64,000 bases of DNA from a virus (lineage: Duplodnaviria > Heunggongvirae > Uroviricota > Caudoviricetes): the IMG/VR virus record IMGVR_UViG_3300031911_000001, positions 37,881 to 101,880 of that record. One strand, given 5' to 3'. Under the pieces are notes generated by a model that saw nothing but the letters and a program-made list of their open reading frames with translations, was not told the origin of the DNA and made no database searches. Below are positions 7,757-34,442 of the stretch, piece after piece. Both the position numbers and the translations under genes were made by a program. The stretch's first letter is position 1. Every line of letters begins with the position of its first letter.

Positions 7757-7766
7757 AGTTTAATGT

Positions 7767-7844: not shown

Positions 7845-7852
7845 ATTTTTGT

Positions 7853-9258: not shown

Positions 9259-9273
9259 TTATCAAAGAATTGT

Positions 9274-10545: not shown

Positions 10546-10571
10546 CTAAGTAACCATGAAGGAACAAAATC

Positions 10572-11081: not shown

Positions 11082-11239
11082 AAATACAGGTCAGAGCCAA
11101 TATCAACCAGATACATGCTCTGACCAATAAAGTGAATAAACTCACTTTTAAGCCGGTTAATCACCAGTTTATTAACTGAATTCGTTGATGTTTGAGGCTT
11201 TACAATAGTGACGTCAAACAAACATAAACGGAGTTCATT

Positions 11240-11776: not shown

Positions 11777-11876
11777 AGGTTTTGCCAGTTTATCAAAACT
11801 GGCTGGTGGAAGTTGAATCGAGTAAAACCGGTTCAGCCCTAGTTTTCTCCCAAGGTTTTCACAAAACGTTGGATCT

Positions 11877-11954
11877 GCCCCTGTAGCTCTTAACTGGTAG
11901 AGCGACTGCCTTGTAAGCAGAGGGTTGGCGGTTCGAGTCCGTCCGGGGGCACCA
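11877..11954 (+). tRNA. tRNA-Thr (TGT)
   Basis: Acceptor gcccctg/cgggggc+A+CCA, D-arm tagctcttaactggtagagc, anticodon loop ctTGTaa, T-arm ggcgg-ttcgagt-ccgtc. Confidence 0.8.
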
Positions 11955-11977
11955 GATTTTTGATAAAGGAAAAGAAG

Positions 11978-12118
11978 ATGGTTGCAAAGCGTTTTGAGGT
12001 TCGTCACAACAATGACATCTATCACGTGTTTGACACACGTCTCTACATCGTGATTGATGCATACCGTGACAAGCAATCGGCTGACGAGCATGTCGATCAG
12101 CTGAACGGCAAGAAGTAA
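11978..12118 (+). CDS. small hypothetical protein (46 aa)
   Basis: MVAKRFEVRHNNDIYHVFDTRLYIVIDAYRDKQSADEHVDQLNGKK. RBS aaaggaaaag. Confidence 0.45.
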   Translation: MVAKRFEVRHNNDIYHVFDTRLYIVIDAYRDKQSADEHVDQLNGKK

Positions 12119-12249
12119 GAAGGCGGAGGCTTCAATGCCTCCCATTAGGCCAGGATGTTTGTAAGGCGTTATTGTGGGTGCCTCCCACTAGCTGTCGGTG
12201 GAAAGGGACACGGCAACCCGGTTCCCCTGATTAAGCATCCTGGCCTAAT

Positions 12250-12342
12250 GGGCATCTTAGCCGAGCTGGCCTAGCGGCAACGGTCTTGAAAACCGAAGGC
12301 TCCGAAAGGGGTGTGTGAGTTCGAGTCTCACGGTGCCCGCCA
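12250..12342 (+). tRNA. tRNA-Ser (TGA), type II
   Basis: Acceptor gggcatc/ggtgccc+G+CCA, anticodon stem cggt/accg with loop ctTGAaa, long variable arm, T-arm gtgag-ttcgagt-ctcac. 93 nt. Confidence 0.8.
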
Positions 12343-12529
12343 AATTTGTGTGAGATTGAAATGTGAAGGAAAACGGTTAAGTCTGCAGGCGCTTGCCGTT
12401 AGTAGGTCACAAAGTAGTTGCTCAGGCTACCTGCACTTTTGATGTTGTCGCGAGTACGCCAACGGGTCAATGCAAACAGTACCGAACTCAAAAGATGCCG
12501 CCGGCGTCGGAACCGGCCACAAACCACAT

Positions 12530-12609
12530 CTCTCGTTAACTCAGTGGAATAAAAGAGTACTGCGCTACGAACGCAGGAGTCGGAGGTTCGAATCCTTCAC
12601 GAGGGACCA
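12530..12609 (+). tRNA. tRNA-Arg (ACG)
   Basis: Acceptor ctctcgt/acgaggg+A+CCA, anticodon stem ctgcg/cgcag with loop ctACGaa, T-arm ggagg-ttcgaat-ccttc. Confidence 0.75.
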
Positions 12610-12675
12610 TTATTTCTGCCTTGGGTTCGAATCCCACGGCGCGAGGGCTGAAGTGGACAGCAGGCAGAAATAATG

Positions 12676-12751
12676 GCCTAGATAGCTCAGACGGTAGAGC
12701 GGCAGCTTGAAAAGCTGTGCGTCACTGGTTCGATCCCAGTTCCGGGCACCA
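12676..12751 (+). tRNA. tRNA-Phe (GAA)
   Basis: Acceptor gcctaga/tccgggc+A+CCA, D-arm tagctcagacggtagagc, anticodon loop ttGAAaa, T-arm actgg-ttcgatc-ccagt. Confidence 0.8.
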
Positions 12752-12939
12752 AGATTGTTCATTGACGACTGGGTAATGTCGTGGATGTTCATGTGAAAGT
12801 CGTGTCCAGGAGGCTCTTGAGAAGATGGCACCGCCCTCCAGCAATGGAGTCCACCGGGAGTGGATGTAAAGAGATTAGAGTCGTGCGGTTGGTGGTTCGC
12901 CATCAACTGTCAAGGATCGGTGGTGACATCGGTCCACCC

Positions 12940-13015
12940 GGGCTCGTAGCTCAGCCGGGAGAGCAACTGCTTTGCAAGCAGAAGGTTGCAGGTTCGATTC
13001 CTGTCGGGTCCACCA
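12940..13015 (+). tRNA. tRNA-Ala (TGC)
   Basis: Acceptor gggctcg/cgggtcc+A+CCA, D-arm tagctcagccgggagagc, anticodon loop ttTGCaa, T-arm gcagg-ttcgattc-ctgt. Confidence 0.75.
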
Positions 13016-13537
13016 GTTTTGTTGATCGTCATGGGCAAGTCGTGACACGTGGGGAACGTAGACCATACACCGATGATCAACGCATTTTATTCGCCGAAGC
13101 TGTAGGTTCAGAGCCGTGATGCAGTACTCCACTCTAATGAGGGAGCGTTTGTGAGGTCAATACTCACCGGCAAATGGTTTGGAGAGTAGTTAGGATGTCG
13201 GGGTGAAATCCCATCATTTAAAGAGTCGTATGGCATTACCCTGATCCCCCACTGCAAGGATCGGAATGTTGTGCCCGGGGAAAGAACAAGCACAGTTCAT
13301 GTGGTTATCGACTATTCGTGCTCTAGAGCTCAGGGCATGAGGTTGAACGTTCAAGGGCGAAGCCTTGGACTAAATCGGCGGGTGTAATGACGGAAAGACC
13401 CAAAGAGATGCCACGTTGAGACCCGTAGATCGTTTGGCTGTCGAAAGCACACTACCTACTCCCAATTCAACATTAGACCCGCCCACGTTATGGGTAGAAG
13501 ATCGGTCGTTTATTAGGGCCTACATGGATCGTCCTCC

Positions 13538-13609
13538 GGACCGCATGCACCGGAGTAAGGCCTCTTTCGAGAGGCCGATGGGTGGGTTCGATTCCCATCA
13601 GGTCCACCA
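13538..13609 (+). other. tRNA-like element with canonical T-arm and CCA end (gtggg-ttcgatt-cccat, caggtcc-A-CCA) but 6-nt anticodon-like loop and degenerate D-arm
   Basis: ggcctc-tttcga-gaggcc hairpin. Acceptor pairing 5/7. Confidence 0.3.
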
Positions 13610-13617
13610 GTTTCAAT

Positions 13618-13693
13618 GCGTGCTTAGCTCAGTTGGTAGAGCAGTTGAGTGCCACTCAACAGGTCGCAGGTTCGAACCCTGTAGCCCGCACCA
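13618..13693 (+). tRNA. tRNA-Gly (GCC)
   Basis: Acceptor gcgtgct/agcccgc+A+CCA, D-arm tagctcagttggtagagc, anticodon stem gttga/tcaac with loop gtGCCac, T-arm gcagg-ttcgaac-cctgt. Confidence 0.8.
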
Positions 13694-13743
13694 GTTTCAA
13701 TGATTGATGACTCAATGCAGTGTATAATGACTGCTTTTGGGAC

Positions 13744-13998
13744 ATGAACATGAAACCTATTCGCCTCATCTTCAACATCTACCGGACGCTTCGGAAGAAG
13801 CCAATCGTCCAGTCGGTTGAAATCTACATGAAGTCCGGCAACGTGATTGTCATCGACAATGTGATCGGAGATATCACTTACACGTATCAGGGCAACCAGA
13901 TCACCTATCTGAAGGTCAAGCAGGCCCCGGGACACAATGTAGCGATTGAATCCATCGACTTGAGCCAGATCGAGGGCTTCAAGAGCAAAGCATACTAG
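13744..13998 (+). CDS. small hypothetical protein (84 aa)
   Basis: ORF track 13720..13998 begins at GTG. ATG at 13744 follows a TATAAT box at 13723-13728. Confidence 0.45.
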   Translation: MNMKPIRLIFNIYRTLRKKPIVQSVEIYMKSGNVIVIDNVIGDITYTYQGNQITYLKVKQAPGHNVAIESIDLSQIEGFKSKAY

Positions 13999-14008
13999 AA
14001 AGAGCATT

Positions 14009-14344
14009 ATGATCGACGACAACTTCCGCAAAGCATTCCTGACCGGCACCGATGACACCGGGCGTCACATCGTGACTTCGGCTCGCACAGGTCGTACCTA
14101 CTTCGTAGAGGCGATCATCACCGAGAAGACCCCTTCGTGGGGTTCGGTGGACCCGGCAACCGGGAACCTGATGCACAAGAAGGGCGACGGGAAACATCTG
14201 GGTGGCGTGAAGCCGGCTCAGTCCATGATCACTCTCGAGAACGGTTTCGATAAGGTCCATGAACTGGGCCACGGAACGTCACCGTATGCGAAGATCGAAG
14301 AACTCGACGCTCAGTACCCCGACAAGGAAGCTGTAGCGGCGTAA
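14009..14344 (+). CDS. hypothetical protein (111 aa)
   Basis: ORF in tRNA island with plausible RBS. Confidence 0.5.
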   Translation: MIDDNFRKAFLTGTDDTGRHIVTSARTGRTYFVEAIITEKTPSWGSVDPATGNLMHKKGDGKHLGGVKPAQSMITLENGFDKVHELGHGTSPYAKIEELDAQYPDKEAVAA

Positions 14345-14439
14345 GGAATTGAAGTATCGTCGGGGTTGTTCCGGCTTCCGCTTCGATGGGCAGTTTTCAT
14401 CCGGTTCTGCGCCTTGTAAAAACCGGCTCCTATTCTGTG

Positions 14440-14516
14440 TGGACCGTCGCCAAGCTGGTTAAGGCCGGGGATTGTGATTCCCCTATGCGTGGGTTCGAAT
14501 CCCATCGGTCCAACCA
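14440..14516 (+). tRNA. tRNA-His (GTG)
   Basis: Acceptor tggaccg/cggtcca (perfect)+A+CCA, preceded by G(-1). Anticodon stem gggga/tcccc with loop ttGTGat. T-arm gtggg-ttcgaat-cccat (close to E. coli tRNA-His). Confidence 0.8.
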
Positions 14517-14526
14517 CACAATTTCG

Positions 14527-14604
14527 GGGTCGCTAGCTCAATCGGTTTAGAGCACCGGGCTTTTAACCCGGGGGTTCTGAGTTCGAGTCTCAGGCGGCCC
14601 ACCA
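14527..14604 (+). tRNA. tRNA-Lys (TTT)
   Basis: Acceptor gggtcgc/gcggccc+A+CCA, anticodon stem ccggg/cccgg with loop ctTTTaa, T-arm ctgag-ttcgagt-ctcag. Confidence 0.8.
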
Positions 14605-14612
14605 AGGTTTTC

Positions 14613-14690
14613 GGATTGCTAACTCAACTGGTTTAGAGTACCCGCCTCTTAAGCGGGAGGTTCTGTGTTCGACTCACAGGCAATCCACCA
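14613..14690 (+). tRNA. tRNA-Lys (CTT)
   Basis: Acceptor ggattgc/gcaatcc (perfect)+A+CCA, anticodon stem cccgc/gcggg with loop ctCTTaa, T-arm gtgtg-ttcgact-cacag. Confidence 0.8.
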
Positions 14691-14702
14691 CTACAGGAGA
14701 AG

Positions 14703-14861
14703 ATGATGAGCAGAACAGTCAAAGGCGGTAAGGGACCGGGATTTGAATACTGGGGCAAGCGTCCCTTCTCGGGTGTCAGTCCCAGCAAAGAGAACAAGCA
14801 GATCACCCACAAGATCGAACGCCAGCGCAACAAGAAGCTGGACAAAGCCGAGAAAGACTAA
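14703..14861 (+). CDS. small basic protein (52 aa)
   Basis: MMSRTVKGGKGPGFEYWGKRPFSGVSPSKENKQITHKIERQRNKKLDKAEKD. Strong RBS caggagaag. Confidence 0.5.
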   Translation: MMSRTVKGGKGPGFEYWGKRPFSGVSPSKENKQITHKIERQRNKKLDKAEKD

Positions 14862-14959
14862 GTAGATACGTTACGCAGGTATTGCTCGACTGAGGGTGAA
14901 AACCCCTCCCGGGACTGCGCCCGCTATAACCGGAGATGAGTACCGGTTTACAACATTTT

Positions 14960-15035
14960 GGGACGTTAGCTCAGCTGGTAGAGCAGCGGATTGTCTATCC
15001 GCATGTCAGGGGTTCGAATCCCCTACGTCCCGCCA
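14960..15035 (+). tRNA. tRNA-Asp (GTC)
   Basis: Acceptor gggacgt/acgtccc (perfect)+G+CCA, anticodon stem gcgga/tccgc with loop ttGTCta, T-arm cagggg-ttcgaat-cccct. Confidence 0.85.
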
Positions 15036-15089
15036 GTTTTTATTGACCACATGGGGCTAGAGTTTTGAAAGCCGAAGTGTCGTCAATAC

Positions 15090-15164
15090 AGCCGATTAGC
15101 TCAGAGGCAGAGCGGCTCCCTTACAAGGAGAAGGTCGACGTTTCAAAATCGTCATTGGCTACCA
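15090..15164 (+). tRNA. tRNA-Val (TAC), unusual T-loop
   Basis: Acceptor agccgat/attggct+A+CCA, D-arm tagctcagaggcagagc, anticodon loop ctTACaa, T-arm gacg-tttcaaaat-cgtc (non-canonical). Confidence 0.65.
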
Positions 15165-15170
15165 TACAGA

Positions 15171-15237
15171 GGTGCTGTAGCTCAGTTGGTTAGAGCGCAG
15201 GATTCATAACCCTGAGGCCGGTGGATCATTCCCACCT
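15171..15237 (+). tRNA. tRNA-Met/Ile2 (CAT), elongator-type, unusual T-loop
   Basis: Acceptor ggtgctg/tagcacc+A+CCA, D-arm tagctcagttggttagagc, anticodon loop ttCATaa, T-arm ggtgg-atcattc-ccacc. Confidence 0.65.
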
Positions 15238-15251
15238 AGCACCACCAGAAC

Positions 15252-15277
15252 AAGACCCTTCGGGGTCTTTTCTTTTG
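15252..15277 (+). terminator. rho-independent terminator closing the tRNA array
   Basis: aagaccc-ttcg-gggtctt followed by ttcttttg. Confidence 0.7.
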
Positions 15278-15297
15278 CCCTTTCTTTCATCGAAGTG

Positions 15298-15356
15298 TTG
15301 ACGGTCGTCATGAACCTCCCTACAATAGGACATCAACAACCACTTGGAGAAGTGAA
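15298..15356 (+). promoter_or_regulatory. conserved early promoter + leader, copy 1 (TTGACG-N17-TACAAT, leader CATCAACAACCACTTGGAGAAGTGAAATG)
   Basis: Seen in sequence. Shares the core CCACTTGGAGAAGTGAAATG with 8 other sites. Confidence 0.7.
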
Positions 15357-15563
15357 ATGCGCAAATTCAAAATGACTATCCTCTGTTCTGTCCAGGTCGA
15401 GGTTCTTGCAGAACTGACCGAAGACGGCACCTTCGTCAGACATGTGGTTGGCGTCAAACATCCGACTGCCGAAGAGGTCATGGCGGCACTAGAAACCCAT
15501 CCCGGTGTCGGTGGCTTAGAAGAGCTCGACTCCCACTACGCCAACGCAAAGGATTTCCAATGA
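15357..15563 (+). CDS. small early protein (68 aa)
   Basis: ATG directly follows the conserved leader. Confidence 0.65.
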   Translation: MRKFKMTILCSVQVEVLAELTEDGTFVRHVVGVKHPTAEEVMAALETHPGVGGLEELDSHYANAKDFQ

Positions 15564-15760
15564 AAACCATGTACTTGGTCCTTGACGGCCTGACCCCGGA
15601 AGACTTCATCCTTCAGCACGTCATACAGACATACGAATTGGATGAGGATCAGGCCAAGGCCATCATCCAAGGACTGAAGGACAACGGGAGTTACCAAGAC
15701 CTTTACAATAGGGCGGTCGAGGTAATCGACGGATTTAAAAAGATGATGGAGGTAAAGTGA
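15560..15760 (+). CDS. small early protein (66 aa)
   Basis: ATGA overlap with previous gene. Confidence 0.6.
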   Translation: MKTMYLVLDGLTPEDFILQHVIQTYELDEDQAKAIIQGLKDNGSYQDLYNRAVEVIDGFKKMMEVK

Positions 15761-15969
15761 TGAGCAAGACCAAACTTCGCCGAGGAATCGGCCACATGGG
15801 CCGTGTCTTCCAATACGGCACCGCAGTCGGCCCGAATGGTGCATCTCTTAGCATCCGGGCTTCTGTAAAGATGCAGGAGGATAACGCCCGAAAGCTGAAC
15901 AAGCTGCCAGAGTTCAAACGTGCTGCAAAGAAGCGCCAACGTCGTGATGACTTCCGGATGGCATCATGA
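15757..15969 (+). CDS. small basic early protein (70 aa)
   Basis: GTGATG overlap with previous gene. Lys/Arg-rich C-terminus. Confidence 0.6.
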   Translation: MMSKTKLRRGIGHMGRVFQYGTAVGPNGASLSIRASVKMQEDNARKLNKLPEFKRAAKKRQRRDDFRMAS

Positions 15970-16442
15970 ACTCCTGTGAAGAACTAGTCCGTGGCATGGA
16001 AGCCGTGGCTGGACCGGGTAATGTGCCCATCTCGTATCGCATCATGGCCCAGTACGGCCGTGAGTACAAGATCAAGACCAACCACCTGACCGGCAAAGGC
16101 CGCAAGCAGGAATGCTACCGGAACTCCGAGAACCTCGTGACGTTCCAGAGCCTCGATGACCGATACGTCTACGTCGAAGGCTACGCCATGAAGCCGGGGT
16201 TGATTCCCTTGTCCCATGCGTGGGTCGTAGACCTGAACGATGGCAAGGCAATCGATCCTACGTGGCCTGAGGGCGATGGCATCTACTTCGGGGTGCCATT
16301 CGACAACGAGTTCGTCAACGACTTCTCGATCAGTGTCGGCTGCTACGGAATCTTCGAGAACCTCTACAAGTTGCACCGTGCTCGCAACATCAAGCGGCTC
16401 GAAGACGTCATCAAATACCTCGAGTCAGGTATCGTCAAGTAA
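15966..16442 (+). CDS. hypothetical protein (158 aa)
   Basis: ATGA overlap with previous gene. Confidence 0.65.
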   Translation: MNSCEELVRGMEAVAGPGNVPISYRIMAQYGREYKIKTNHLTGKGRKQECYRNSENLVTFQSLDDRYVYVEGYAMKPGLIPLSHAWVVDLNDGKAIDPTWPEGDGIYFGVPFDNEFVNDFSISVGCYGIFENLYKLHRARNIKRLEDVIKYLESGIVK

Positions 16443-16489
16443 GTAAACCACGGGTCATTGAAGGCCCGTCATTTACCATACAGGTTCAA

Positions 16490-16579
16490 GGGCGGTTGGC
16501 AGAGAGGCCGATTGCAGGGGGTTGCTAACCCCTAGGCTCCGCAAGGGGTCCACAGGTTCAAATCCTGTACCGCCCGCCA
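16490..16579 (+). tRNA. tRNA-Ser (GCT), type II
   Basis: Acceptor gggcggt/accgccc (perfect)+G+CCA, anticodon stem ggggg/cccct with loop ttGCTaa, long variable arm, T-arm cacagg-ttcaaat-cctgt. 90 nt. Lies outside the main array. Confidence 0.8.
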
Positions 16580-16595
16580 ACTCTACGGAACCTGT

Positions 16596-17018
16596 ATGTC
16601 AGCACTCTACAATCACATCCGAGCCGAATGGGTCGCTGCCCGACAAGGCAGAATCGAGCTCAAGGCGACTGCTCTCGGCACCATCATTTCTGATCTGGAC
16701 CGCATTGCCAAGGACGAGCAACGTGAGGTCCGAGACTCAGACGTCTTCAATCTGGCACTGAAGTACATCAAGGGCATCAACGAGACCTTGGATGCTCTGC
16801 TGAAGAACGCACCGTCGGACGTGCGCATCCCCCGAATTCAGTTCGAGAAGACGATCTACCAAGAGCTCCTGCCGTCTCAATTGACGCCAGACGAGATCAA
16901 GAAGATCATCCAGCAAAACCACCTGACCGGTGTCAAGGACATCATGACGTACTTCAAGCACCACTACGTTGGCCGGTACGATGGAAAGGTACTCTCAGAA
17001 ATCGCCAGGACAGCATGA
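16596..17018 (+). CDS. hypothetical protein (140 aa)
   Basis: ORF. Confidence 0.6.
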   Translation: MSALYNHIRAEWVAARQGRIELKATALGTIISDLDRIAKDEQREVRDSDVFNLALKYIKGINETLDALLKNAPSDVRIPRIQFEKTIYQELLPSQLTPDEIKKIIQQNHLTGVKDIMTYFKHHYVGRYDGKVLSEIARTA

Positions 17019-17326
17019 AATCAGCCATTATCTACACGCAGGCCGGAGACCGTACCTACCGGTTCATCTGGTACGAAGACCTGCTTAAACGGGCGCAAAT
17101 CGGCTTCCGTGTAGTAGAGCTCCCACGTCTCGAGAACCAGTGTCAGGGGTGCATCCTGAAGTGGGACTTCTCGGTCAGAGGCAACCACATGGATGACTAC
17201 GGTAATCGCATGGGTTGCACCGCTGACCAGTACCGAGACTTGACATACGTCATTGGATGGGATCACAGCTGCGGAACAACTGAAATCAGATCAGAGAAGC
17301 AACTCAAAGAATGGATCGAATCATGA
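17015..17326 (+). CDS. hypothetical protein (103 aa)
   Basis: ATGA overlap with previous gene. Confidence 0.6.
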   Translation: MKSAIIYTQAGDRTYRFIWYEDLLKRAQIGFRVVELPRLENQCQGCILKWDFSVRGNHMDDYGNRMGCTADQYRDLTYVIGWDHSCGTTEIRSEKQLKEWIES

Positions 17327-17793
17327 AGCAAATCTACGTCGCAGGCTTCGCCTTCAATGGTGATCGTGTCCTGCTCATCGAGAAGACGAAGCCTGAATGG
17401 CAGGCAGGGAAGCTCAACGGTATTGGTGGCAAGGTCGAGAAGTACGACCACGACGAATACGCCGCCCAATGCCGTGAGTTCTGGGAAGAGACTGGCATCA
17501 GCACCAATGCCCTCAATTGGACCAAGTTCGACGTCGAACGATTCGATCATGCCGAAGTCCATTGGTTCTTCAACCCGGTTGTCAACATTGACTCATTCAT
17601 CAAGACTACCGAGGAGCAACCGGTGATTGTTCGAGTCAGTGACGTCATCGGTGAAGGATTCAATCCATACGACGATGGCAAGATGTGTCTCTATAACTTG
17701 CCCTATCTGCTACTAAAAGCATGGACTTTCGTCTTCAATGGTGGTCCTCACCATCAGATTCCCAATCTTAAGGCCTCATACTACACTGCGTAG
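17311..17793 (+). CDS. Nudix hydrolase (T4 NudE-like)
   Basis: Nudix box GGKVEKYDHDEYAAQCREFWEETGI. Confidence 0.75.
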   Translation: MDRIMKQIYVAGFAFNGDRVLLIEKTKPEWQAGKLNGIGGKVEKYDHDEYAAQCREFWEETGISTNALNWTKFDVERFDHAEVHWFFNPVVNIDSFIKTTEEQPVIVRVSDVIGEGFNPYDDGKMCLYNLPYLLLKAWTFVFNGGPHHQIPNLKASYYTA

Positions 17794-17829
17794 CAATTGT
17801 AAAGTGTAAGTAAGCAGGGAGATACCAAT

Positions 17830-18465
17830 ATGAAACTAATCAACAAACTGGTGTTCGCTGCTATTATGCTTGTCACTTGCACTGCCGTGACTACACAGCA
17901 ACTGCAGCAGACCGAGAAGATCATTGAGACGGAGCAGTCTACGATTGCTGTCGTTCGTGACAAGATTGACAAGTCCATCACCGGTGACAAGCTGGTGTTC
18001 GGCAGTGTGGTTCACCTGAAGAAGCAGGTCGGCGTAGACAACATCCGGATCATCCAGCGCAAGGGTGCGTACAACTGTGCCCGGGGTGAGTTCATCATCA
18101 AGGAAGTTACCGCCTTTGACAAGTCCGGTAACGAGGTCAAGGATGAAAACATCAAGACCGATGTGATCATGACGCCGAACATCGACACCGTCAAGCGAGA
18201 GTTCAAGTTCATGTGTGCCGATCCTACACCGGCTCCTGTAGTAGAACCACCTGCACCGCCGCCTCAGATCATCACGGTTCCGATCCCTGTGATCATTGAA
18301 GCCGTCGAGGAAGCACCGAAGAAGGCCCGTCCGAAGCCAGCAGTGAAGAAGCCTGAACCGGCACCGAAGCCAATCGCCAAAGCCCCTGAGGCACCCAAGG
18401 TCAAGGCTCCTGTTGTTCAAAAACAACCACTCAACGCCGGACAACGTACTGATCTGGTAGACTAA
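17830..18465 (+). CDS. secreted/membrane protein with Pro/Ala/Lys-rich repetitive C-terminus
   Basis: N-terminal hydrophobic segment. C-terminal PTPAPVVEPPAPPP...KKPEPAPKPIAKAPEAPKVKAP low-complexity repeats. Confidence 0.6.
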   Translation: MKLINKLVFAAIMLVTCTAVTTQQLQQTEKIIETEQSTIAVVRDKIDKSITGDKLVFGSVVHLKKQVGVDNIRIIQRKGAYNCARGEFIIKEVTAFDKSGNEVKDENIKTDVIMTPNIDTVKREFKFMCADPTPAPVVEPPAPPPQIITVPIPVIIEAVEEAPKKARPKPAVKKPEPAPKPIAKAPEAPKVKAPVVQKQPLNAGQRTDLVD

Positions 18466-18472
18466 TGCACAT

Positions 18473-18553
18473 GGGGGAGTGACGGGAATCCTTGGTATAC
18501 CTCGGGGCCTCAAAAGCTCTGGTCTGTGGGTTCAAGTCCCACCTCCCCTACCA
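18473..18553 (+). tRNA. tRNA with Leu anticodon CAA, Leu-like D-arm, discriminator A, but short (5-nt) variable arm (second class-I-like tRNA-Leu)
   Basis: Acceptor gggggag/ctcccct+A+CCA, anticodon stem ggggc/gctct with loop ctCAAaa, variable ggtct, T-arm gtggg-ttcaagt-cccac. Confidence 0.5.
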
Positions 18554-29499: not shown

Positions 29500-29563
29500 A
29501 GCTGCACCTGACCTTGAGAATCAGGGAAGCTATGTGGAACCGCTCTTGGAAGATGCTTCTATA

Positions 29564-29596
29564 ATGCCCCTGAGCTCAACCGGGGCATTTTCATTT
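29564..29596 (+). terminator. rho-independent terminator
   Basis: atgcccc-tgagctcaac-cggggcat followed by tttcattt. Confidence 0.6.
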
Positions 29597-29601
29597 AGAT
29601 G

Positions 29602-29629
29602 TTGACAGACCTTCAAACCTCTATACACT
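29602..29629 (+). promoter_or_regulatory. sigma70-like promoter TTGACA-N16-TACACT
   Basis: gttgacagaccttcaaacctctatacact, upstream of 29676 gene with AAGGAG RBS. Confidence 0.55.
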
Positions 29630-29675
29630 ACGGACTTGTTACTTGAACTTGTTTTAATTTTTAAGGAGTTTGAAA

Positions 29676-30368
29676 ATGTCCAATGTCATTCTGAGTCTCG
29701 TGTCTCCCGAAGGTACTGTGCGCGTCGATTTCATCGAGGGTGAAAACTCCGGTGACATGCTGCAGAAGGTCGAACAGGCCCTGACCGAACATCCCCTGAT
29801 CCCCAAGCTGGGTCGTGGATCGGTCAAGGACATGATCTACGGTCGCAAGACCACGGTCAGCGGCTGGCACGTCGAGAAGGACGGCAAGAACCTCGCAGAC
29901 GGCAGCAAGTCGGTGCCCAATTCGATCCCGGTGACGGTGATCGGTGCGGTTGCTGATGGTACGGTGGCAACGACCCCCGATGCAGGCAAGGAAGCAACGA
30001 AGCCGGCCGACACGCTGCCTTCGAGCCCCGAGGCCTCCACCGTGAAGCACGCTGCCAAGAAGACCCGCAAGCCGCGTACCGCCAAGACGACTGCTGCTCC
30101 GGCCGCTGTCAAGACGGGTCGCCGCGAGAAGGTCTACAAGCTCGGTCCCAAGGTGGCCGAAATGACCAGCCGTGGAATGATCGCCAAGATCGTCGAACTG
30201 GTCAAGCAGGGCAAGAACACGAAGTCGCAGATCATCGCGGCCCTGCCCGGCATGAACAAGTCGACCATCCAACACGAAATCTGCATGGCTGGTCCGGCTT
30301 TCCGCAACTACATCGCCATCGACGAAGAAGCGACGGCGAAGGCGGCCCAAGAAAGCCAGACCGTCTGA
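29676..30368 (+). CDS. hypothetical protein (230 aa) with Lys/Ala-rich central region
   Basis: ATG 29676 after AAGGAG RBS (track ORF begins at TTG 29670). Confidence 0.6.
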   Translation: MSNVILSLVSPEGTVRVDFIEGENSGDMLQKVEQALTEHPLIPKLGRGSVKDMIYGRKTTVSGWHVEKDGKNLADGSKSVPNSIPVTVIGAVADGTVATTPDAGKEATKPADTLPSSPEASTVKHAAKKTRKPRTAKTTAAPAAVKTGRREKVYKLGPKVAEMTSRGMIAKIVELVKQGKNTKSQIIAALPGMNKSTIQHEICMAGPAFRNYIAIDEEATAKAAQESQTV

Positions 30369-30394
30369 TCCCGGGGTAACCCGGTGTTAGAAGC

Positions 30395-30422
30395 AGGGGA
30401 CGATTAAGTCCCCTTCTTTTTG
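30395..30422 (+). terminator. rho-independent terminator
   Basis: aggggac-gattaa-gtcccct followed by tcttttt. Confidence 0.65.
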
Positions 30423-30468
30423 CCCTGAGTTGTAAAGTAACAACAATCTTACTGAATGTTTAAAATTG

Positions 30469-30497
30469 TTGTTGCGGACTCAAAAAGATCATACAAT
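30469..30497 (+). promoter_or_regulatory. sigma70-like promoter TTGTTG-N17-TACAAT
   Basis: ttgttgcggactcaaaaagatcatacaat. Leader contains caacaaacc...ggagg, reminiscent of the conserved leader. Confidence 0.5.
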
Positions 30498-30547
30498 AGT
30501 GACACCACAAACCATGTGGCAATCAACAAACCCTGGAGGTATTCATC

Positions 30548-31384
30548 ATGAAGCGTAATCTTTCTTTCCTCGTGGCAGTGGCCACACTGGCAATCTCGTC
30601 TGCAGCCTTTGCCACTCCCGGCAACAACGGCAATGGCGGTGGTGGTTGCGGCAACGGCCAAACGACAAACGGTTGCCCAGGCAATCAGCCCGGCCCTCAA
30701 GGCCCGCAGGGTCCACAAGGTCCAGTCGGTCCACAAGGTCCAGTCGGTCCACAAGGTCCGCAGGGTCCGGTAGGTGCAACTGGTCCCCAAGGCCCGCAAG
30801 GAGCAACGGGAGCAACTGGCGCCACCGGCGCTACGGGTGCCCAAGGCGTTGCTGGTCGTGACGGAACCAACGGTACGAACGGCCGTGATGGTGTCAATGG
30901 AACCAATGGCGTCAACGGTACGAACGGGACCAATGGTCGAGACGGTGCGGCCGGACGTGATGGAGCCGATGGTGTTGCTGGTGCCACTGGCGCTACCGGT
31001 GCTCAGGGCGTCCAAGGCGAACGCGGCCTGCAGGGTGAAAACGCCCCGGATGCTGTGACCGTCCAACAGATGACCAGCACGGTGGCAGCGGCTCAAGCCC
31101 AAACCCAGATGCAGATCAACGGGCTCCGTGACGAAATCCAAGGCGTTGCCAAGGCTGCCTATTCGGGTGTTGCCGCAGCGATGGCCCTGCAGATGCCTTC
31201 GATCAATCCGAACAAGCCGGATGCACTGGTGATGCGCATGGGCGTGGGCACCTACAAGGGCCAGTCGGCGGTGGGCATCAGCTTCCGTCGAAGCAACAAG
31301 GCCGGTGACTGGTCGGTGACGGGTGGCGTGTCCCATACTTCCCACGGTACGGCGGCTGCTCTGGGCATTGAACACTCCTTCTAA
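30548..31384 (+). CDS. secreted collagen-like (Gly-X-Y) protein with YadA-like C-terminal beta-barrel anchor (trimeric-autotransporter-like)
   Basis: Signal peptide [22 protein letters not shown]. About 40 GXY triplets ([19 protein letters not shown]...[10 protein letters not shown]). C-terminal [15 protein letters not shown]...[47 protein letters not shown] ending in Phe, like YadA/TAA membrane anchors. Confidence 0.65.
30655..31045 (+). repeat. tandem Gly-X-Y coding repeats (collagen-like triplets)
   Basis: Repeated ggtccacaaggtccagtcggtcca... units within the CDS. Confidence 0.8.
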
Positions 31385-31404
31385 ACCAGATCGTTGATCC
31401 TAGA

Positions 31405-31427
31405 GGGTCACTACAATGTGACCTTTT
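31405..31427 (+). terminator. rho-independent terminator
   Basis: gggtcac-tacaat-gtgacc followed by tttt. Confidence 0.55.
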
Positions 31428-31441
31428 AGGAGTCAAACAAA

Positions 31442-31618
31442 ATGGTTCGTCAGGTAGTTTTGTTCATTCTGTTGTGGGCCCTGCTTTGGGCGGGACTCTC
31501 AACGTGGCGCAAGTGGAAGGTCAAGTCGGCCTTCAACTGGTCCAAAACACTGGGTCTTAGCGGGTTGGCCGCCGTCTTGACCTTCATTCTTCTGGCTGTG
31601 TTCGTACAAGTATTCTAA
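31442..31618 (+). CDS. small membrane protein (58 aa)
   Basis: MVRQVVLFILLWALLWAGLSTWRKWKVKSAFNWSKTLGLSGLAAVLTFILLAVFVQVF. RBS ttaggag. Confidence 0.5.
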   Translation: MVRQVVLFILLWALLWAGLSTWRKWKVKSAFNWSKTLGLSGLAAVLTFILLAVFVQVF

Positions 31619-31628
31619 GGAACTTCCA

Positions 31629-32423
31629 ATGAAACGTCTCTCGATCCTCTTCGCAGCCCTCGTGCTGATGGTCCTCTCGGCATGTACCCGAATCGAAACC
31701 GGTGAAGTCGGCGTCCGTACCGATTTTCGCAAACAGGTTGTGATGGAAGAGTTGCCCGCTGGCTCCATGAACCAGACCATCATCGGCGACGTTCACACGT
31801 TCCCGGTGCGTGACCTGTCCCTGCATCGCAAGATCAACCCCCAAGCCGGTGACAACAGCACCCTCAAGAACTTCGAGTACACCGTCGTCTACAGCATCAG
31901 TGCTGGCGCAGCGGCCGAACTCTGGGCCAACAAGTCCCGTCAATTCCATGGCCGTGAGCAAGACGGTGACGTGCTGCTGATGTGGAACTACGTGCAGAAC
32001 ATTGCCGACAACTCTGCCCAGAAGGCTGTTCGCAAGCATCGCTCCCTCGTCCTCAACGACAACCGTGCGCAGATCGAGCAGGACATCAAGACCTTCATGA
32101 CCGAGAAGCTGGTTGAAGAAAAGCTCCAGAACTCGATCATCATTTCGCAGGTTCAGATGAACGCCGCTCTGGCAGCCGATGACATCGTCGAGTCCGCCAA
32201 CCGTGCGATCCGAGCCGAGAACGACCTGAAGACCAAGATGACCGAGGTCCAGACGGCCGAGCAGGAAGCCAAGCGCATTGCCATGCTCAACAGCAACGCC
32301 AAGGCGATCGAGTACATGAATGCTCAGTCGATGATGACCATTGCCGAGGCAGTGAAGGCCGGCAAGGTGAGCACCATCGTCATCCCCTACGACTTCAAGG
32401 GCATGGTCAACATCACCAAGTAA
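31629..32423 (+). CDS. lipoprotein with SPFH/band-7-like domain
   Basis: Lipobox LSAC after signal peptide. Coiled-coil/SPFH-like region. Confidence 0.5.
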   Translation: MKRLSILFAALVLMVLSACTRIETGEVGVRTDFRKQVVMEELPAGSMNQTIIGDVHTFPVRDLSLHRKINPQAGDNSTLKNFEYTVVYSISAGAAAELWANKSRQFHGREQDGDVLLMWNYVQNIADNSAQKAVRKHRSLVLNDNRAQIEQDIKTFMTEKLVEEKLQNSIIISQVQMNAALAADDIVESANRAIRAENDLKTKMTEVQTAEQEAKRIAMLNSNAKAIEYMNAQSMMTIAEAVKAGKVSTIVIPYDFKGMVNITK

Positions 32424-32432
32424 GAGGCCACC

Positions 32433-32774
32433 ATGGAACACCCGATTCAACACCCTCTGTGCCTCGAAATCCTGAAGACCGGCCTTACCTTCGAAGCCTA
32501 CAGTGACAGCATCGGGATTCACGGGTTCAGTAAGGCTGGCCAAGCGAGGCTCTACCTTGATCCTGCAGACCCAAGTCGCCTCGTAGCCCATACCCGCTAC
32601 GGGGAGACAGAGCTGATCTACACGGTCAGGGACCTCGTGGAGTTGTCGTTGAAGTGGTGGAGGAGGTATGCAGATTGGGGATATGAATGCCCTCCAAACT
32701 TCAAACCGCTGTTCGTAAGTCTGGGGTTGGTCAAGATCGAGACGATAACGACAGAGAAGACGGTCTTCATTTAA
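32433..32774 (+). CDS. hypothetical protein (113 aa)
   Basis: ORF. Confidence 0.5.
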   Translation: MEHPIQHPLCLEILKTGLTFEAYSDSIGIHGFSKAGQARLYLDPADPSRLVAHTRYGETELIYTVRDLVELSLKWWRRYADWGYECPPNFKPLFVSLGLVKIETITTEKTVFI

Positions 32775-33400: not shown

Positions 33401-33634
33401 ATGACCGAAGAGCAAGAAATCAAGATGTACGGCAGCACCGTCGTCGACATGCAAAACTCAGTCGAGAACTCCCTGTCGGTCAAGATCGATGGGGCTGGCG
33501 GCTACCCAATGGTCGTTGCATCTATGATGTCTGACGCACAGGAGCTCATTGCCATGGGCCAAAGCGAAGAAGCCCGCCAGATGCTCAATTGCGCCAAGTG
33601 GGTGCTGTTCACCTACATCATGAAGAGGCGCTGA
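33401..33634 (+). CDS. hypothetical protein (77 aa)
   Basis: ORF with RBS aaggaaag. Confidence 0.5.
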   Translation: MTEEQEIKMYGSTVVDMQNSVENSLSVKIDGAGGYPMVVASMMSDAQELIAMGQSEEARQMLNCAKWVLFTYIMKRR

Positions 33635-33956: not shown

Positions 33957-34442
33957 ATGTCAATGACTTTCGCGGCGGCGTACGCAATGGTGATGGGCAC
34001 GGCCTCAATTTCTACGGCCCAGATCGACACCCAGCAACATCACTGCCTTGCTGAGGCAATCTACTTCGAAGCCGGCAATCAAAGCTACTTCGGGAAGATT
34101 GCAGTGGCAAACGTGATCATGAACCGGGCCAAGTCCTCGGGAAAGACGGTCTGTGAGGTCATCAAGCGGCCCAAGCAGTTCAGCTACCGTCAGATGACGG
34201 CCTTCAAGAAGCAGAACATCAAGGTCGATCAGCCCAAGGTGAAGATTGCGGTGGTAAATTCTATCACGGTAGCAAAGGCAGCGCTGAAGAAAAACCTGCC
34301 AGACCTGACCCGTGGGGCACGGTTCTATTTGAACCCGGCCGCAGCGACTGACTTCTCATGGTCTTCCAAGTTCACGAAGACTGTAGTGATCGGTGATCAT
34401 CACTTCTACATTGATCCCAAGGCAAAGAACGGCAACGCATGA
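33957..34442 (+). CDS. SleB/CwlJ-family cell-wall hydrolase with N-terminal signal/anchor
   Basis: CLAEAIYFEAGNQSYFGKIAVANVIMNR...QFS matches the Hydrolase_2 (SleB) signature. N-terminal hydrophobic segment. Confidence 0.65.
   Translation: MSMTFAAAYAMVMGTASISTAQIDTQQHHCLAEAIYFEAGNQSYFGKIAVANVIMNRAKSSGKTVCEVIKRPKQFSYRQMTAFKKQNIKVDQPKVKIAVVNSITVAKAALKKNLPDLTRGARFYLNPAAATDFSWSSKFTKTVVIGDHHFYIDPKAKNGNA

What the first reader, a model, noticed from the sequence alone, without database searches (positions are those of the whole stretch)
30548..31384. Phage-encoded collagen-like protein with signal peptide and YadA-type C-terminal membrane anchor
About 40 Gly-X-Y triplets follow a cleavable signal peptide. 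The final roughly 80 residues (…[47 protein letters not shown]) have the alternating pattern and terminal aromatic residue of trimeric autotransporter (YadA) beta-barrel anchors. In a lytic T4-like phage this suggests a protein exported to the host outer membrane during infection (superinfection exclusion, receptor masking or adhesion). Alternatively a virion fibre could have borrowed a TAA-like trimerization module. The gene has its own promoter and terminator (30469-30497 / 31405-31427).
Basis: partly seen in the sequence, partly recalled or inferred. Interest (0 to 1): 0.7.

Follow-up and report, generated by a model that had tools for sequence, protein, structure and literature searches.

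The report
Phage-encoded collagen-stalk trimeric autotransporter
A large T4-type phage carries a gene for a small outer-membrane-anchored collagen-like fibre; the reading is correct, but the same protein type is already annotated, uncharacterised, in phiEco32 and dozens of other virulent phages.

Summary
ORF 30548-31384 (+) encodes 278 aa with five parts:
- a Sec-type signal peptide;
- a short Gly/Asn-rich segment with two cysteines;
- 39 uninterrupted Gly-X-Y triplets;
- a coiled-coil helix;
- a C-terminal YadA-type anchor.

The anchor scores 31.6 bits against Pfam PF03895 (cut-off 22.7). An AlphaFold model (pLDDT 86) superposes on the AtaA and Hia membrane anchors (TM 0.83).

The window is a phage with T4-type replication and baseplate genes. 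The gene lies among non-structural genes and is bracketed by strong hairpins.

It is not new. phiEco32 gp119 ("agglutinating adhesin") has the same order of parts, including the N-terminal motif GNNGxGxGGCGxGQxTNGC. A search with gp119 found 92 deposited phage records, nearly all carrying YadA-anchor genes. Two papers noted such genes in virulent phages without explaining them.

Two new details emerged:
- The anchor resembles the TAAs of the likely host clade (Variovorax, about 50% identity).
- The N-terminal motif is conserved across phages of beta- and gammaproteobacteria, and is shared with a second secreted phage family (phrog_20531).

Display on the infected cell's outer membrane is well supported. 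The role is inferred: superinfection exclusion or surface shielding, with adhesion a close rival.

Verdict: new member of a known, uncharacterised kind. Interest is moderate.

The parts
30395..30414 (+). Intrinsic terminator of the upstream gene (29670-30368): AGGGGAC-GATTAA-GTCCCCT followed by TCTTTTT. It insulates the TAA gene from upstream transcription.
   Evidence: Terminator scan. RNA fold -28.8 kcal/mol, z -4.3.
30469..30503 (+). Putative promoter: weak -35 TTGTTG, 17-nt spacer, -10 TACAAT (30492-30497), followed by AGTGAC. It lacks the TTGACA -35 box of the strong sigma70-like promoters elsewhere in the window.
   Evidence: Read from the sequence. TACAATAGTGAC occurs only here and upstream of gene 11240, and the two leaders align. 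The consensus scan preferred 30437-30466 instead. Inferred, not shown.
30535..30539 (+). Shine-Dalgarno GGAGG, 8 nt before the ATG.
30548..31384 (+). Complete coding sequence, 278 aa plus stop: a phage-encoded collagen-stalk trimeric autotransporter.
   Evidence: Full-length homologues P0002-P0005, L005, L006, L070 and phiEco32 gp119.
30548..30613 (+). Signal peptide, residues 1-22 ([22 protein letters not shown]), with predicted signal peptidase I cleavage after AFA.
   Evidence: Hydropathy and the A-x-A rule. Conserved in all family members. No SignalP run.
30614..30688 (+). N-terminal tip module, residues 23-47: [25 protein letters not shown]. The two Cys (34, 43) probably form a small disulfide loop. 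In a TAA this end is the distal tip of the fibre.
   Evidence: Columns GNNG, GGCG, GQ and TNGC are invariant in the N-terminal alignment of 13 phage proteins; 14 shorter segments gave a similar picture. The motif is also present in phiEco32 gp119 and in the non-TAA family phrog_20531. The disulfide and tip role are inferred.
30692..31042 (+). Collagen-like region: 39 uninterrupted Gly-X-Y triplets (residues 49-165), about 33 nm if triple-helical. It contains a perfect 18-bp tandem repeat (30710-30759, 2.8 copies).
   Evidence: Pfam Collagen E 3e-15.
31043..31195 (+). Junction [11 protein letters not shown] (a variant of the DAVNxxQL motif that recurs before the coiled coil in the TAA homologues) and the helix of residues 172-213, which in solved TAA anchors runs as a coiled coil into the barrel pore.
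   Evidence: AF2 helix at model residues 10-51, equal to protein residues 172-213. Weak YadA_stalk hits in 2 of 7 family members. Alignment with bacterial TAAs.
31205..31381 (+). YadA-type membrane anchor, residues 220-278. Four beta-strands (227-236, 239-249, 255-264, 267-276) and a C-terminal Phe.
   Evidence: Pfam PF03895 above cut-off. AtaA sequence hit. AF2 plus Foldseek match to 9vnj_A, 3emo_A and 2gr7_A. All 7 family members hit PF03895.
31394..31436 (+). Long hairpin directly after the stop codon. It is a possible terminator (inner stem GGGTCAC/GTGACC followed by TTTT). The loop is TACAAT, so it may also hold the -10 of the next gene (31442).
   Evidence: RNA fold -25.6 kcal/mol, z -5.3. 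Not called by the terminator scan. Function inferred.

Best explanation
The gene encodes a minimal, head-less trimeric autotransporter (type Vc secretion) made by the phage in the infected cell.

Mechanism, inferred from what is established for TAAs:
1. The signal peptide takes the chain through Sec.
2. Three C-terminal anchors, four strands each, are inserted by the host BAM machinery as one 12-stranded barrel.
3. The passenger is threaded out through the barrel, C-terminal end first.
4. The membrane-proximal coiled coil sets the register for a 39-triplet collagen triple helix.

The product would be a rod of about 35 nm on the outer membrane. Its far end carries a conserved Cys-loop motif.

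Most likely biological role (inference): the fibre changes the infected cell's surface to control phage adsorption. That means excluding superinfecting phages, or keeping progeny from being lost on debris. Adhesion or aggregation is a close second.

The phage keeps its own passenger, while the anchor resembles the TAAs of the likely host clade. This fits a need for compatibility with that host's BAM.
For: Architecture (shown):
- Signal peptide, Collagen and YadA_anchor domains.
- Sequence hit to the AtaA anchor.
- AF2 model, pLDDT 86, with one helix and four strands; it matches only the AtaA and Hia anchors in the PDB, TM 0.73-0.83.
- C-terminal Phe.

Phage origin and non-structural position (shown):
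- T4-type replication and baseplate genes in the window.
- The gene is flanked by a terminator and a hairpin.
- Homologues sit among replication or early-type genes on the same strand: in a 332-kb phage contig (L005), in a 35-kb DNA-polymerase phage contig (L006), in a prophage-like run next to NinX (L003), and in phiEco32 among small genes of unknown function.
- Moreno Switt 2013 notes the same for virulent Salmonella phages: the gene is next to dUTPase, not tail genes.

Family conservation (shown):
- Anchor and coiled coil are 67-84% identical across the close family, while collagen length varies from 9 to 39 triplets.
- The tip motif is conserved as far as E. coli phage phiEco32.

Host-like anchor (shown):
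- 43 of the 48 related loci in bacterial genomes are Variovorax, and most of the rest are other Burkholderiales. Most share 43-52% identity.

Role (inferred):
- There is no adhesive head domain.
- The protein is mainly a rigid spacer.
- The gene has an early-type location.
- It occurs mostly in virulent phages.
- From my own knowledge, envelope proteins made early by virulent phages are typically exclusion factors (T4 Imm/Sp, T5 Llp).
Against: - No experiment or expression data exist. The time of expression is unknown, the promoter is weak by consensus, and its class is unassigned.
- The characterised TAAs I know of are adhesins or autoagglutinins. A conserved tip on a rod looks more like a ligand-binding adhesin than a passive shield.
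- A 35-nm rod cannot easily reach back to mask a receptor on its own membrane.
- The tip motif is shared by phages with unrelated virions and hosts, and by a non-anchored secreted family (phrog_20531). Its target is therefore unlikely to be a specific phage receptor.
- In T4-family Serratia phages, the region holding the YadA-anchor ORF can be deleted without loss of viability.
- Trimerisation, triple-helix formation and surface exposure could not be tested.
Confidence: 0.4

Rival explanations
1. Adhesin or auto-agglutinin. The fibre's conserved tip binds a surface component common to Proteobacteria, or an abiotic or eukaryotic surface. Infected cells then stick to neighbouring susceptible cells or to particles, so progeny are released next to new hosts.
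For: - The characterised TAAs I know of are adhesins (own knowledge); YadA itself is described as an agglutinating adhesin.
- The tip motif is invariant in the core columns across 13 proteins from phages of different hosts (motif segments), as expected of a binding module.
- From my own knowledge, bacterial collagen-like surface proteins such as Lcl and Scl mediate adhesion and aggregation. NCBIfam shows only sub-threshold similarity to them, driven by the repeats.
- GenBank depositors chose 'agglutinating adhesin' for the phiEco32 and FSL SP-076 proteins.
Against: - There is no head, Hep_Hag or other known binding domain.
- I know of no precedent for a virulent phage that benefits from host aggregation.
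- The 'adhesin' label in databases rests on homology of the anchor only.
Confidence: 0.3
2. Virion fibre. The protein is a structural tail or whisker fibre that borrowed a TAA-like trimerisation module, as database labels such as 'tail protein', 'tail fibers protein' and 'receptor binding protein' imply.
For: - The best PHROG hits are 'tail fiber protein' or 'tail protein' families.
- Several deposited homologues carry such labels.
- Phage tail fibres with collagen repeats exist (PMC3368898).
- Virion proteins with YadA head-type domains exist in cyanophages.
Against: - The tail-fibre PHROG matches lie mainly in the Gly-X-Y region, within residues 10-190, so they largely reflect repeat composition.
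- The anchor matches PHROG families of unknown function.
- A cleavable Sec signal peptide and a membrane beta-barrel with a C-terminal aromatic residue do not fit cytoplasmic assembly of tailed-phage virions.
- The gene is 8 kb from the baseplate genes, among non-structural genes.
- Homologues in other phages also lie outside tail modules.
Confidence: 0.04
3. Host-fitness cargo or neutral passenger. The gene is a moron-type cassette that benefits the bacterium (serum, grazing or surface-colonisation traits, as with the prophage Eib proteins). In this virulent phage it is simply carried along, with no role in the lytic cycle.
For: - The gene is bracketed by a terminator and a hairpin, like a self-contained cassette.
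- One family member lies in a bacterial chromosome (LR594675.1) in a prophage-like region.
- Prophage-borne TAAs (EibA, EibC, EibD) are known.
- The homologous region is dispensable in Serratia T4-family phages.
Against: - Third-position GC of the anchor part (0.73) matches the phage average (0.68 +/- 0.06), not a fresh import.
- The family is kept, with a conserved tip and anchor, in at least four unrelated phage types. Most are large or polymerase-encoding phages with no sign of lysogeny in the regions examined.
- In the prophage-like locus it sits in the nin-type early region, not at a typical conversion locus.
Confidence: 0.1

Closest known systems
Escherichia phage phiEco32 gp119 (phi32_119, UniProt B0FIT1, 'agglutinating adhesin'; PHROG phrog_26246 'tail protein') and its relatives in Kuravirus and other virulent phages
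   Same: The order of parts is the same from end to end: signal peptide, GNNGNGNGGCGVGQSTNGCG motif, about 22 Gly-X-Y triplets, coiled coil, then a YadA anchor ending in an aromatic residue. BLASTP gives 36% identity, E 2e-16, and the window ORF hits phrog_26246 at 9e-22. Both genes lie outside the structural module, among small genes of unknown function. Function is unknown in both.
   Different: The window protein has a longer and uninterrupted collagen run (39 triplets). Its anchor is of the Variovorax/Burkholderiales type rather than the enterobacterial type. The host phage is a roughly 168-kb T4-type myophage rather than a 77-kb podophage. tblastn with the window protein did not find the phiEco32 group at all.
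Classical trimeric autotransporter adhesins (YadA, Hia, AtaA; type Vc secretion)
   Same: Signal peptide, C-terminal four-strand anchor with a pore helix, and a DAVxxxQ junction motif. The predicted fold superposes on the AtaA and Hia anchors.
   Different: It has no head or neck domains. The stalk is a collagen triple helix rather than a coiled coil. It is only 278 aa, whereas the bacterial homologues retrieved here mostly run to several hundred or more than 1000 aa. It is encoded by a phage.
VtaA trimeric autotransporters of Glaesserella (Haemophilus) parasuis
   Same: TAAs that combine collagen triple-helix repeats (PF01391) with a YadA anchor (PF03895) (PMC4138102). Two Variovorax-type bacterial TAAs found here (P0028, P0030) also carry short internal collagen segments.
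   Different: VtaA proteins also carry YadA head repeats and stalk motifs, are much larger, are chromosomal virulence factors, and lack the N-terminal Cys-loop motif.
Eib immunoglobulin-binding proteins (EibA/C/D) of E. coli prophages
   Same: Phage-borne TAAs. P-EibA and P-EibC were weak hits to the phiEco32 protein's anchor. Prophage origin is cited in PMC8065619.
   Different: Eib proteins are encoded by temperate phages, have coiled-coil Ig-binding stalks without collagen, and act as lysogenic-conversion factors (their serum-resistance and Ig-binding roles are from my own knowledge).
Collagen-like phage tail fibres (e.g. prophage collagen-like proteins of E. coli O157:H7, PMC3368898) and 'YadA domain-containing structural proteins' of cyanophages (PMC9146016)
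   Same: Gly-X-Y repeats in a phage protein, and trimeric fibrous architecture.
   Different: The cyanophage protein was detected in virions by mass spectrometry, and the E. coli proteins are described as collagen-like sequences carried in prophages. By my own knowledge such virion fibres have no signal peptide and no membrane anchor. The window protein has both, and it lies outside the tail module.
Phage superinfection-exclusion and receptor-masking envelope proteins (T5 Llp, T4 Imm/Sp, lambda Lom/Bor)
   Same: Phage-encoded proteins sent to the host envelope during infection. This is a functional analogy only, drawn from my own knowledge.
   Different: There is no sequence or fold relationship. 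Those are lipoproteins, inner-membrane proteins or 8-stranded barrels. No TAA has been shown to act this way, and no paper in the library links the two.

Membership tests
Trimeric autotransporter adhesin (type Vc secretion) | C-terminal YadA-like anchor domain (PF03895) above the curated threshold | tested here: met
   31.6 bits against a cut-off of 22.7, E 1.8e-7, residues 220-277. All 7 family members match.
Trimeric autotransporter adhesin (type Vc secretion) | Anchor fold: pore-traversing helix followed by four beta-strands per chain | tested here: met
   AF2 model, pLDDT 86: helix 172-213 plus four strands. Foldseek top hits are 9vnj_A (TM 0.83, rmsd 1.5), 3emo_A and 2gr7_A; nothing else falls below E 0.01.
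Trimeric autotransporter adhesin (type Vc secretion) | N-terminal Sec signal peptide | tested here: met
   n-h-c layout and AFA|T cleavage motif, conserved in homologues. Heuristic only; no SignalP.
Trimeric autotransporter adhesin (type Vc secretion) | C-terminal aromatic residue (BAM beta-signal) | tested here: met
   The protein ends ...GIEHSF. Family members end in F, and phiEco32 gp119 in W.
Trimeric autotransporter adhesin (type Vc secretion) | Obligate homotrimer forming a 12-stranded barrel in the outer membrane, with a surface-exposed passenger | not testable with these tools
   Only a monomer model was made. This needs outer-membrane fractionation, SDS-resistant trimer detection, and protease shaving or EM.
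Trimeric autotransporter adhesin (type Vc secretion) | Head and neck passenger domains (typical, not strictly defining) | tested here: not met
   No YadA_head, Hep_Hag or HIM hits. There is only a weak YadA_stalk hit, in 2 of 7 members. The passenger is the tip motif plus collagen.
Bacterial/phage collagen-like proteins (PF01391) | Long uninterrupted Gly-X-Y repeat next to a trimerisation domain | tested here: met
   39 triplets at residues 49-165. Pfam E 3e-15. The coiled coil and anchor lie directly C-terminal.
Bacterial/phage collagen-like proteins (PF01391) | Formation of a stable triple helix | not testable with these tools
   Needs CD melting or collagenase and trypsin resistance tests on the recombinant passenger.
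Phage 'agglutinating adhesin' / YadA-like family (phiEco32 gp119 type, phrog_26246) | Signal peptide, GNNGxGxGGCGxGQxTNGC motif, collagen, coiled coil and YadA anchor, in that order | tested here: met
   Translation of phi32_119. BLASTP E 2e-16 to gp119 and 1e-31 to the L070 protein over the full length. phrog_26246 E 9e-22. Motif alignments.
Phage 'agglutinating adhesin' / YadA-like family (phiEco32 gp119 type, phrog_26246) | Gene located outside the virion structural module | tested here: met
   Window: between RNR/RuvC-like genes and the SPFH lipoprotein and endolysin-like genes. phiEco32: among small genes of unknown function. Salmonella phages: next to dUTPase. L006: between primase-helicase and exonuclease/polymerase.
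Phage tail fibre with collagen repeats | No signal peptide, a tail-fibre C-terminal domain, and a gene in the tail module | tested here: not met
   A signal peptide is present. The C-terminus is a membrane anchor. The PHROG tail-fibre matches lie mainly in the Gly-X-Y region. The gene is not in the tail module.
Moron (autonomous promoter-gene-terminator cassette in a phage genome) | Own promoter and terminator, and composition different from the neighbours | tested here: inconclusive
   There is a terminator upstream and a hairpin downstream, and a -10 with a weak -35. However, GC3 of the non-repeat part equals the phage average, and the neighbouring genes are not conserved between loci.

The most novel reading that the evidence does not exclude
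The conserved N-terminal module after the signal peptide (GNNGGGNGGCGVGQQTNGCG) may be a phage-specific functional unit that recognises something common to proteobacterial envelopes. Candidates would be LPS core or peptidoglycan.

Phages would deploy this module on two scaffolds:
- at the tip of a collagen-stalk TAA (this gene, phiEco32 gp119);
- on a non-anchored Gly/Asn-rich secreted protein (phrog_20531).

Under this reading the TAA version is an infected-cell 'grappling fibre'. It would tether uninfected hosts, or trap incoming virions about 35 nm from the surface. That would be a so far undescribed way for virulent phages to manage adsorption and spread.
Probability: 0.15. Interest if true: 0.7.

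Novelty: new member of a known kind. Interest (0 to 1): 0.38.

Why it matters
Virulent phages of many hosts carry small YadA-anchor genes, including jumbo, T4-type and phiEco32-type phages. Databases label them inconsistently: adhesin, tail protein, tail fibre, receptor-binding protein or hypothetical. In the literature I could search, nobody has shown what they do.

This locus adds three things:
- a clean, full-length example from a likely Variovorax phage;
- evidence that the 'tail protein' label probably comes from the collagen repeats and should be corrected;
- a modular pattern in which the anchor follows the host clade while the passenger, and above all its Cys-loop tip, is phage-specific and conserved across beta- and gammaproteobacterial phages.

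If these fibres do control adsorption or cell-to-cell contact during lytic infection, that would be a new class of phage-directed remodelling of the host surface. It could be tested directly in phiEco32 and E. coli.

The public gene call for this contig keeps only the last 104 residues. Automated surveys would therefore miss the signal peptide and the collagen stalk.

Tried and rejected
1. Searches with the window protein against deposited phages found nothing. Megablast of the locus and tblastn of the whole protein gave no match. tblastn of the C-terminal 114 aa gave one marginal non-phage hit. This first suggested novelty. It was overturned by the structure search against viral proteins and by tblastn with phiEco32 gp119. 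The window protein is simply too diverged (14-28% identity in the anchor) for tblastn.
2. The word-indexed protein search with the C-terminus returned only the contig's own truncated gene call, P0001. With the N-terminal motif profile it was swamped by low-complexity candidates.
3. The metagenome-contig scan and the first genome-contig scan with the family alignment found nothing. The broad alignment A2 had no usable conserved stretch.
4. The PHROG 'tail fiber' hits were rejected as evidence for a virion role, because they lie mainly in the Gly-X-Y region.
5. There are no PADLOC defence-system hits for the gene or its neighbours. There is no Rfam family in 29500-32500, and no T4 late promoter TATAAATA anywhere in the window. 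Expression class could therefore not be assigned.
6. Synteny was checked and is essentially absent. No neighbour is shared with related loci, except a 77-aa gene (33401-33634) that matches the gene just downstream of the TAA in L002. The adjacent SPFH lipoprotein and 58-aa membrane protein are thus not a conserved module with the TAA.
7. Recent capture from a high-GC host was rejected. The high GC comes from Gly, Pro and Ala codons, and GC3 of the anchor part is typical of the phage.
8. L058, a viral contig with a 1151-aa classical TAA at the contig edge, was judged an ordinary bacterial-type TAA and not part of this family.
9. Literature searches linking TAAs with superinfection exclusion gave only chance co-mentions.
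Full report
**The feature is real**

The ORF at 30548-31384 (+) starts with ATG, 8 nt after a GGAGG Shine-Dalgarno, and encodes 278 aa. It has five parts.
- Residues 1-22 form a signal peptide ([22 protein letters not shown]|TP) with the n-h-c layout and an A-x-A site.
- Residues 23-47 form a Gly/Asn-rich segment with two cysteines (C34, C43).
- Residues 49-165 are 39 uninterrupted Gly-X-Y triplets. Pfam Collagen matches at E 3e-15. The coding DNA contains a perfect 18-bp tandem repeat.
- Residues 166-216 are a junction motif and a helical segment.
- Residues 220-277 match Pfam YadA_anchor (PF03895) at E 1.8e-7, 31.6 bits against a 22.7-bit cut-off.

Two further results support the anchor. A sequence search of the PDB finds the AtaA anchor (9vnj_A, E 1.3e-9). 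An AlphaFold2 model of residues 163-278, built on 37 homologues, has pLDDT 86. It shows one long helix (172-213) followed by four beta-strands. Foldseek against the PDB returns only the AtaA and Hia membrane anchors below E 0.001 (TM 0.83, 0.79, 0.73). The chain ends in Phe.

The opposite-strand ORF 30449-31375 is a shadow of the repeat.

The public gene call for this contig (P0001, 104 aa from Met175) is truncated. No Shine-Dalgarno precedes Met175. All homologues are full length, and an anchor without a signal peptide would make no sense.

**Context**

The window is phage DNA with a T4-type core:
- topoisomerase II large and medium subunits, ATP-dependent ligase, class I RNR, gp32-type SSB and a helicase;
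- baseplate tube-cap and wedge proteins;
- 26 tRNA genes and a permuted tmRNA.

The nearest deposited relatives of the topoisomerase are XacN1, Stenotrophomonas CM1/RAS14 and Xoo-sp13, at about 50% identity. "T4-like" therefore holds only in the broad sense, and a lytic lifestyle is inferred from gene content.

The gene lies in a long run of plus-strand genes. Upstream are RNR and a RuvC-like nuclease. Downstream are a 58-aa membrane protein, an SPFH lipoprotein and a Hydrolase_2 enzyme. The baseplate genes are 8 kb away.

The upstream gene ends in a canonical terminator at 30395-30414. A strong hairpin follows the stop codon (31394-31436, -25.6 kcal/mol, z -5.3).

It lacks the TTGACA box of the strong sigma70-like promoters elsewhere in the window. 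The element TACAATAGTGAC occurs only here and before gene 11240. No T4-type late promoter occurs in the window. Expression time could not be assigned.

**Relatives**

An exhaustive HMMER search with the C-terminal 114 aa found 371 proteins.

The four closest (P0002-P0005, 204-242 aa, 69-83% identity) share the architecture. P0005 lacks the two-cysteine motif. They sit among many small same-strand ORFs typical of phage early regions. One lies in a prophage-like stretch of a bacterial chromosome, next to a NinX gene.

IMG/VR holds further members. One is in a 332-kb phage contig (L004/L005, next to a tRNA nucleotidyltransferase and a dNMP phosphatase). Another is in a 35-kb, 65% GC contig between primase-helicase and exonuclease/DNA polymerase (L006).

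All seven members hit YadA_anchor, and five hit Collagen. Collagen length ranges from 9 to 39 triplets, while the anchor and coiled coil stay 67-84% identical.

The next-best matches are large bacterial TAAs with about 50% identity in the anchor. In one-genome-per-species contigs, 43 of the 48 related loci are Variovorax. Most of the rest are other Burkholderiales (Xenophilus, Rhodoferax, Polaromonas, Burkholderiaceae). This points to a Variovorax-like host. It also suggests an anchor matched to that host's outer-membrane insertion machinery. The search patterns were partly derived from such sequences, so the taxonomic skew is indicative rather than proof.

**It is not new**

tblastn with the window protein found nothing in 50,697 deposited phage genomes, which at first suggested novelty. 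The structure search against predicted viral proteins showed otherwise. Its hits included:
- phiEco32 "agglutinating adhesin";
- Proteus P59;
- Erwinia Y2 gp20 and Yoloswag;
- Salmonella SKML-39 and FSL SP-076;
- Yersinia fHe-Yen9-04;
- the T4-like Yersinia phages TG1 and phiR1-RT.

Translating phiEco32 gene 119 gives the same architecture:
- signal peptide;
- KSGNNGNGNGGCGVGQSTNGCG;
- about 22 Gly-X-Y triplets;
- coiled coil;
- an anchor ending in Trp.

BLASTP to the window protein gives E 2e-16. A 72-kb IMG/VR contig (L070) has a still closer full-length match (38% identity, E 1e-31).

tblastn with gp119 hits 92 phage records. Most are virulent phages of enterobacteria (Salmonella, Escherichia, Erwinia, Yersinia, Pantoea) and Aeromonas. 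The prophages P-EibA and P-EibC also appear, and a few weak hits (Mycobacterium and Ruminococcus phages) match only the collagen repeats.

The labels on these genes range over adhesin, YadA-like protein, tail protein, tail fibers protein, receptor binding protein and hypothetical protein.

PHROGs already holds the families (phrog_26246 "tail protein", phrog_17426 "adhesin", phrog_8062).

Two papers had noted such genes and left their function open. Moreno Switt et al. 2013 described yadA homologues in virulent Salmonella phages, next to dUTPase rather than tail genes. A 2017 Serratia T4-family phage study (PMC5449768) found a YadA-anchor ORF in a dispensable region near tRNA genes.

Collagen repeats combined with a YadA anchor are also known in bacterial VtaA proteins. 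Prophage-borne TAAs are known as the Eib proteins.

**What this analysis adds**

- The N-terminal module is the most conserved phage-specific part. The columns GNNG, GGCG, GQ and TNGC are invariant in the N-terminal alignment of 13 phage proteins (motif segments).
- An exact DNA pattern for CGVGQxTNGC occurs in 15 IMG/VR contigs.
- Five of those loci carry collagen-TAAs: phiEco32 itself, L070, and the L005 phage, which was sampled three times.
- About ten carry the motif, directly after a signal peptide where the N-terminus is present, on other scaffolds. In seven of these the scaffold is a Gly/Asn/Gln/Ser-rich segment followed by a conserved Cys-containing C-terminal domain. It has no Pfam match and corresponds to phrog_20531 of unknown function.
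- The anchors follow the host clade: Variovorax-type here, and Enterobacter-type at 54% identity in the Salmonella phages. The passenger does not follow the host.
- The tail-type labels probably arise from the repeats. PHROG tail-fibre matches to the window protein lie mainly in the Gly-X-Y region, and its anchor matches only families of unknown function.

**How it most likely works**

The architecture is shown. The steps below are inferred from established TAA biology.
1. Sec exports the chain and signal peptidase I cleaves it.
2. DsbA probably closes the C34-C43 loop.
3. BAM inserts three anchors as one barrel.
4. The passenger emerges C-terminus first.
5. The coiled coil sets the register, and the collagen helix zips outward.

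The result would be a rod of about 33 nm (117 residues x 0.286 nm) capped by the Cys-loop module.

The role is inferred. I favour control of adsorption (superinfection exclusion, or protection of progeny from debris) at about 0.35-0.4. Four observations support this:
- the protein has no adhesive head;
- it is mostly spacer;
- the gene lies in early-type regions;
- it occurs mainly in virulent phages.

Adhesion or aggregation is nearly as likely (about 0.3), because a conserved tip on a rod is what an adhesin looks like. A virion role is unlikely (about 0.04), given the signal peptide and the membrane anchor. A passenger or host-benefit gene is possible (about 0.1), but third-position GC is phage-like and the family persists in unrelated phages.

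**Verdict**

This is a new member of a known but uncharacterised kind of phage gene. Interest is moderate: the open question of why virulent phages make TAAs is real and could be tested in phiEco32.

Noticed in passing
window 7555-18553: A cluster of 26 tRNA genes plus a permuted (two-piece) tmRNA. ARAGORN places the tmRNA at 10057-10469 with tag ANDAQMRIAA. Rfam RF04321 matches 10090-10378 at 61.9 bits, and finds an extra tRNA at 9834-9911.
   Followed up: partly
window 15338, 20869, 32860, 33938, 34694 (+); 45936, 53108, 54762, 55035 (-): A 17-nt leader, AACCACTTGGAGAAGTG, lies immediately before start codons at 9 sites (0.25 expected by chance). It often follows a TTGAC-N17-TA(C/T)AAT promoter-like site. 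This looks like a shared 5' UTR and ribosome-binding element of one gene class. The TAA gene does not have it.
   Followed up: partly
window 31442-31618 and 31629-32423: Two more envelope-targeted genes lie directly downstream of the TAA gene. One is a 58-aa protein with two hydrophobic segments. The other is an SPFH/Band-7 protein with a lipobox (LSAC), which matches phrog_200 'lipoprotein'. Neither is conserved next to the TAA gene in related loci.
   Followed up: partly
IMG/VR loci L062, L063, L064, L065, L071, L073, L074 (also L061, L068, L069, L075): A second phage protein family (phrog_20531, unknown function) begins with the same module, a signal peptide followed by GNNGGGNGGCGVGQQTNGCG. 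It continues with a Gly/Asn/Gln/Ser-rich low-complexity stretch and a conserved C-terminal domain (...PVATAYAAPL..CMGSSSAGGQG..G.SFG.SWTD.NC...). It has no Pfam match.
   Followed up: partly
P0001 (public gene call on the window's own contig, about 168 kb): The database gene call for this locus is only 104 aa and starts at Met175. It loses the signal peptide, tip motif and collagen stalk, and only PF03895 is recorded for it.
   Followed up: yes
L005 9482-10339 (332-kb IMG/VR contig; the same gene occurs in L004): This jumbo-phage homologue carries five PPVVV repeats and a His/Gly-rich stretch (GHNGHGGGGHAHSH) between the Cys motif and the collagen region.
   Followed up: no
P0028 and P0030 (bacterial TAAs with Variovorax-type anchors): These large bacterial TAAs contain short internal collagen-like runs, for example [37 protein letters not shown]. 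Collagen segments therefore also occur in TAAs with the Variovorax-type anchor.
   Followed up: no
window 33401-33634 versus L002 2200-2463: A 77-aa gene 2 kb downstream of the TAA gene is 51% identical to the gene directly downstream of the TAA homologue in metagenome contig L002. This hints that about 2 kb (the membrane protein, the SPFH lipoprotein and three small ORFs) was inserted or lost between two related phages.
   Followed up: no
window 33957-34442: A Hydrolase_2 (SleB-type cell-wall hydrolase) gene that matches PHROG endolysin families. It is preceded by the conserved 17-nt leader.
   Followed up: no
L058 1-3456 (18.7-kb IMG/VR contig): A classical 1151-aa TAA with an extended signal peptide region lies at the edge of a contig classed as viral. 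It is probably host DNA flanking an integrated element.
   Followed up: partly
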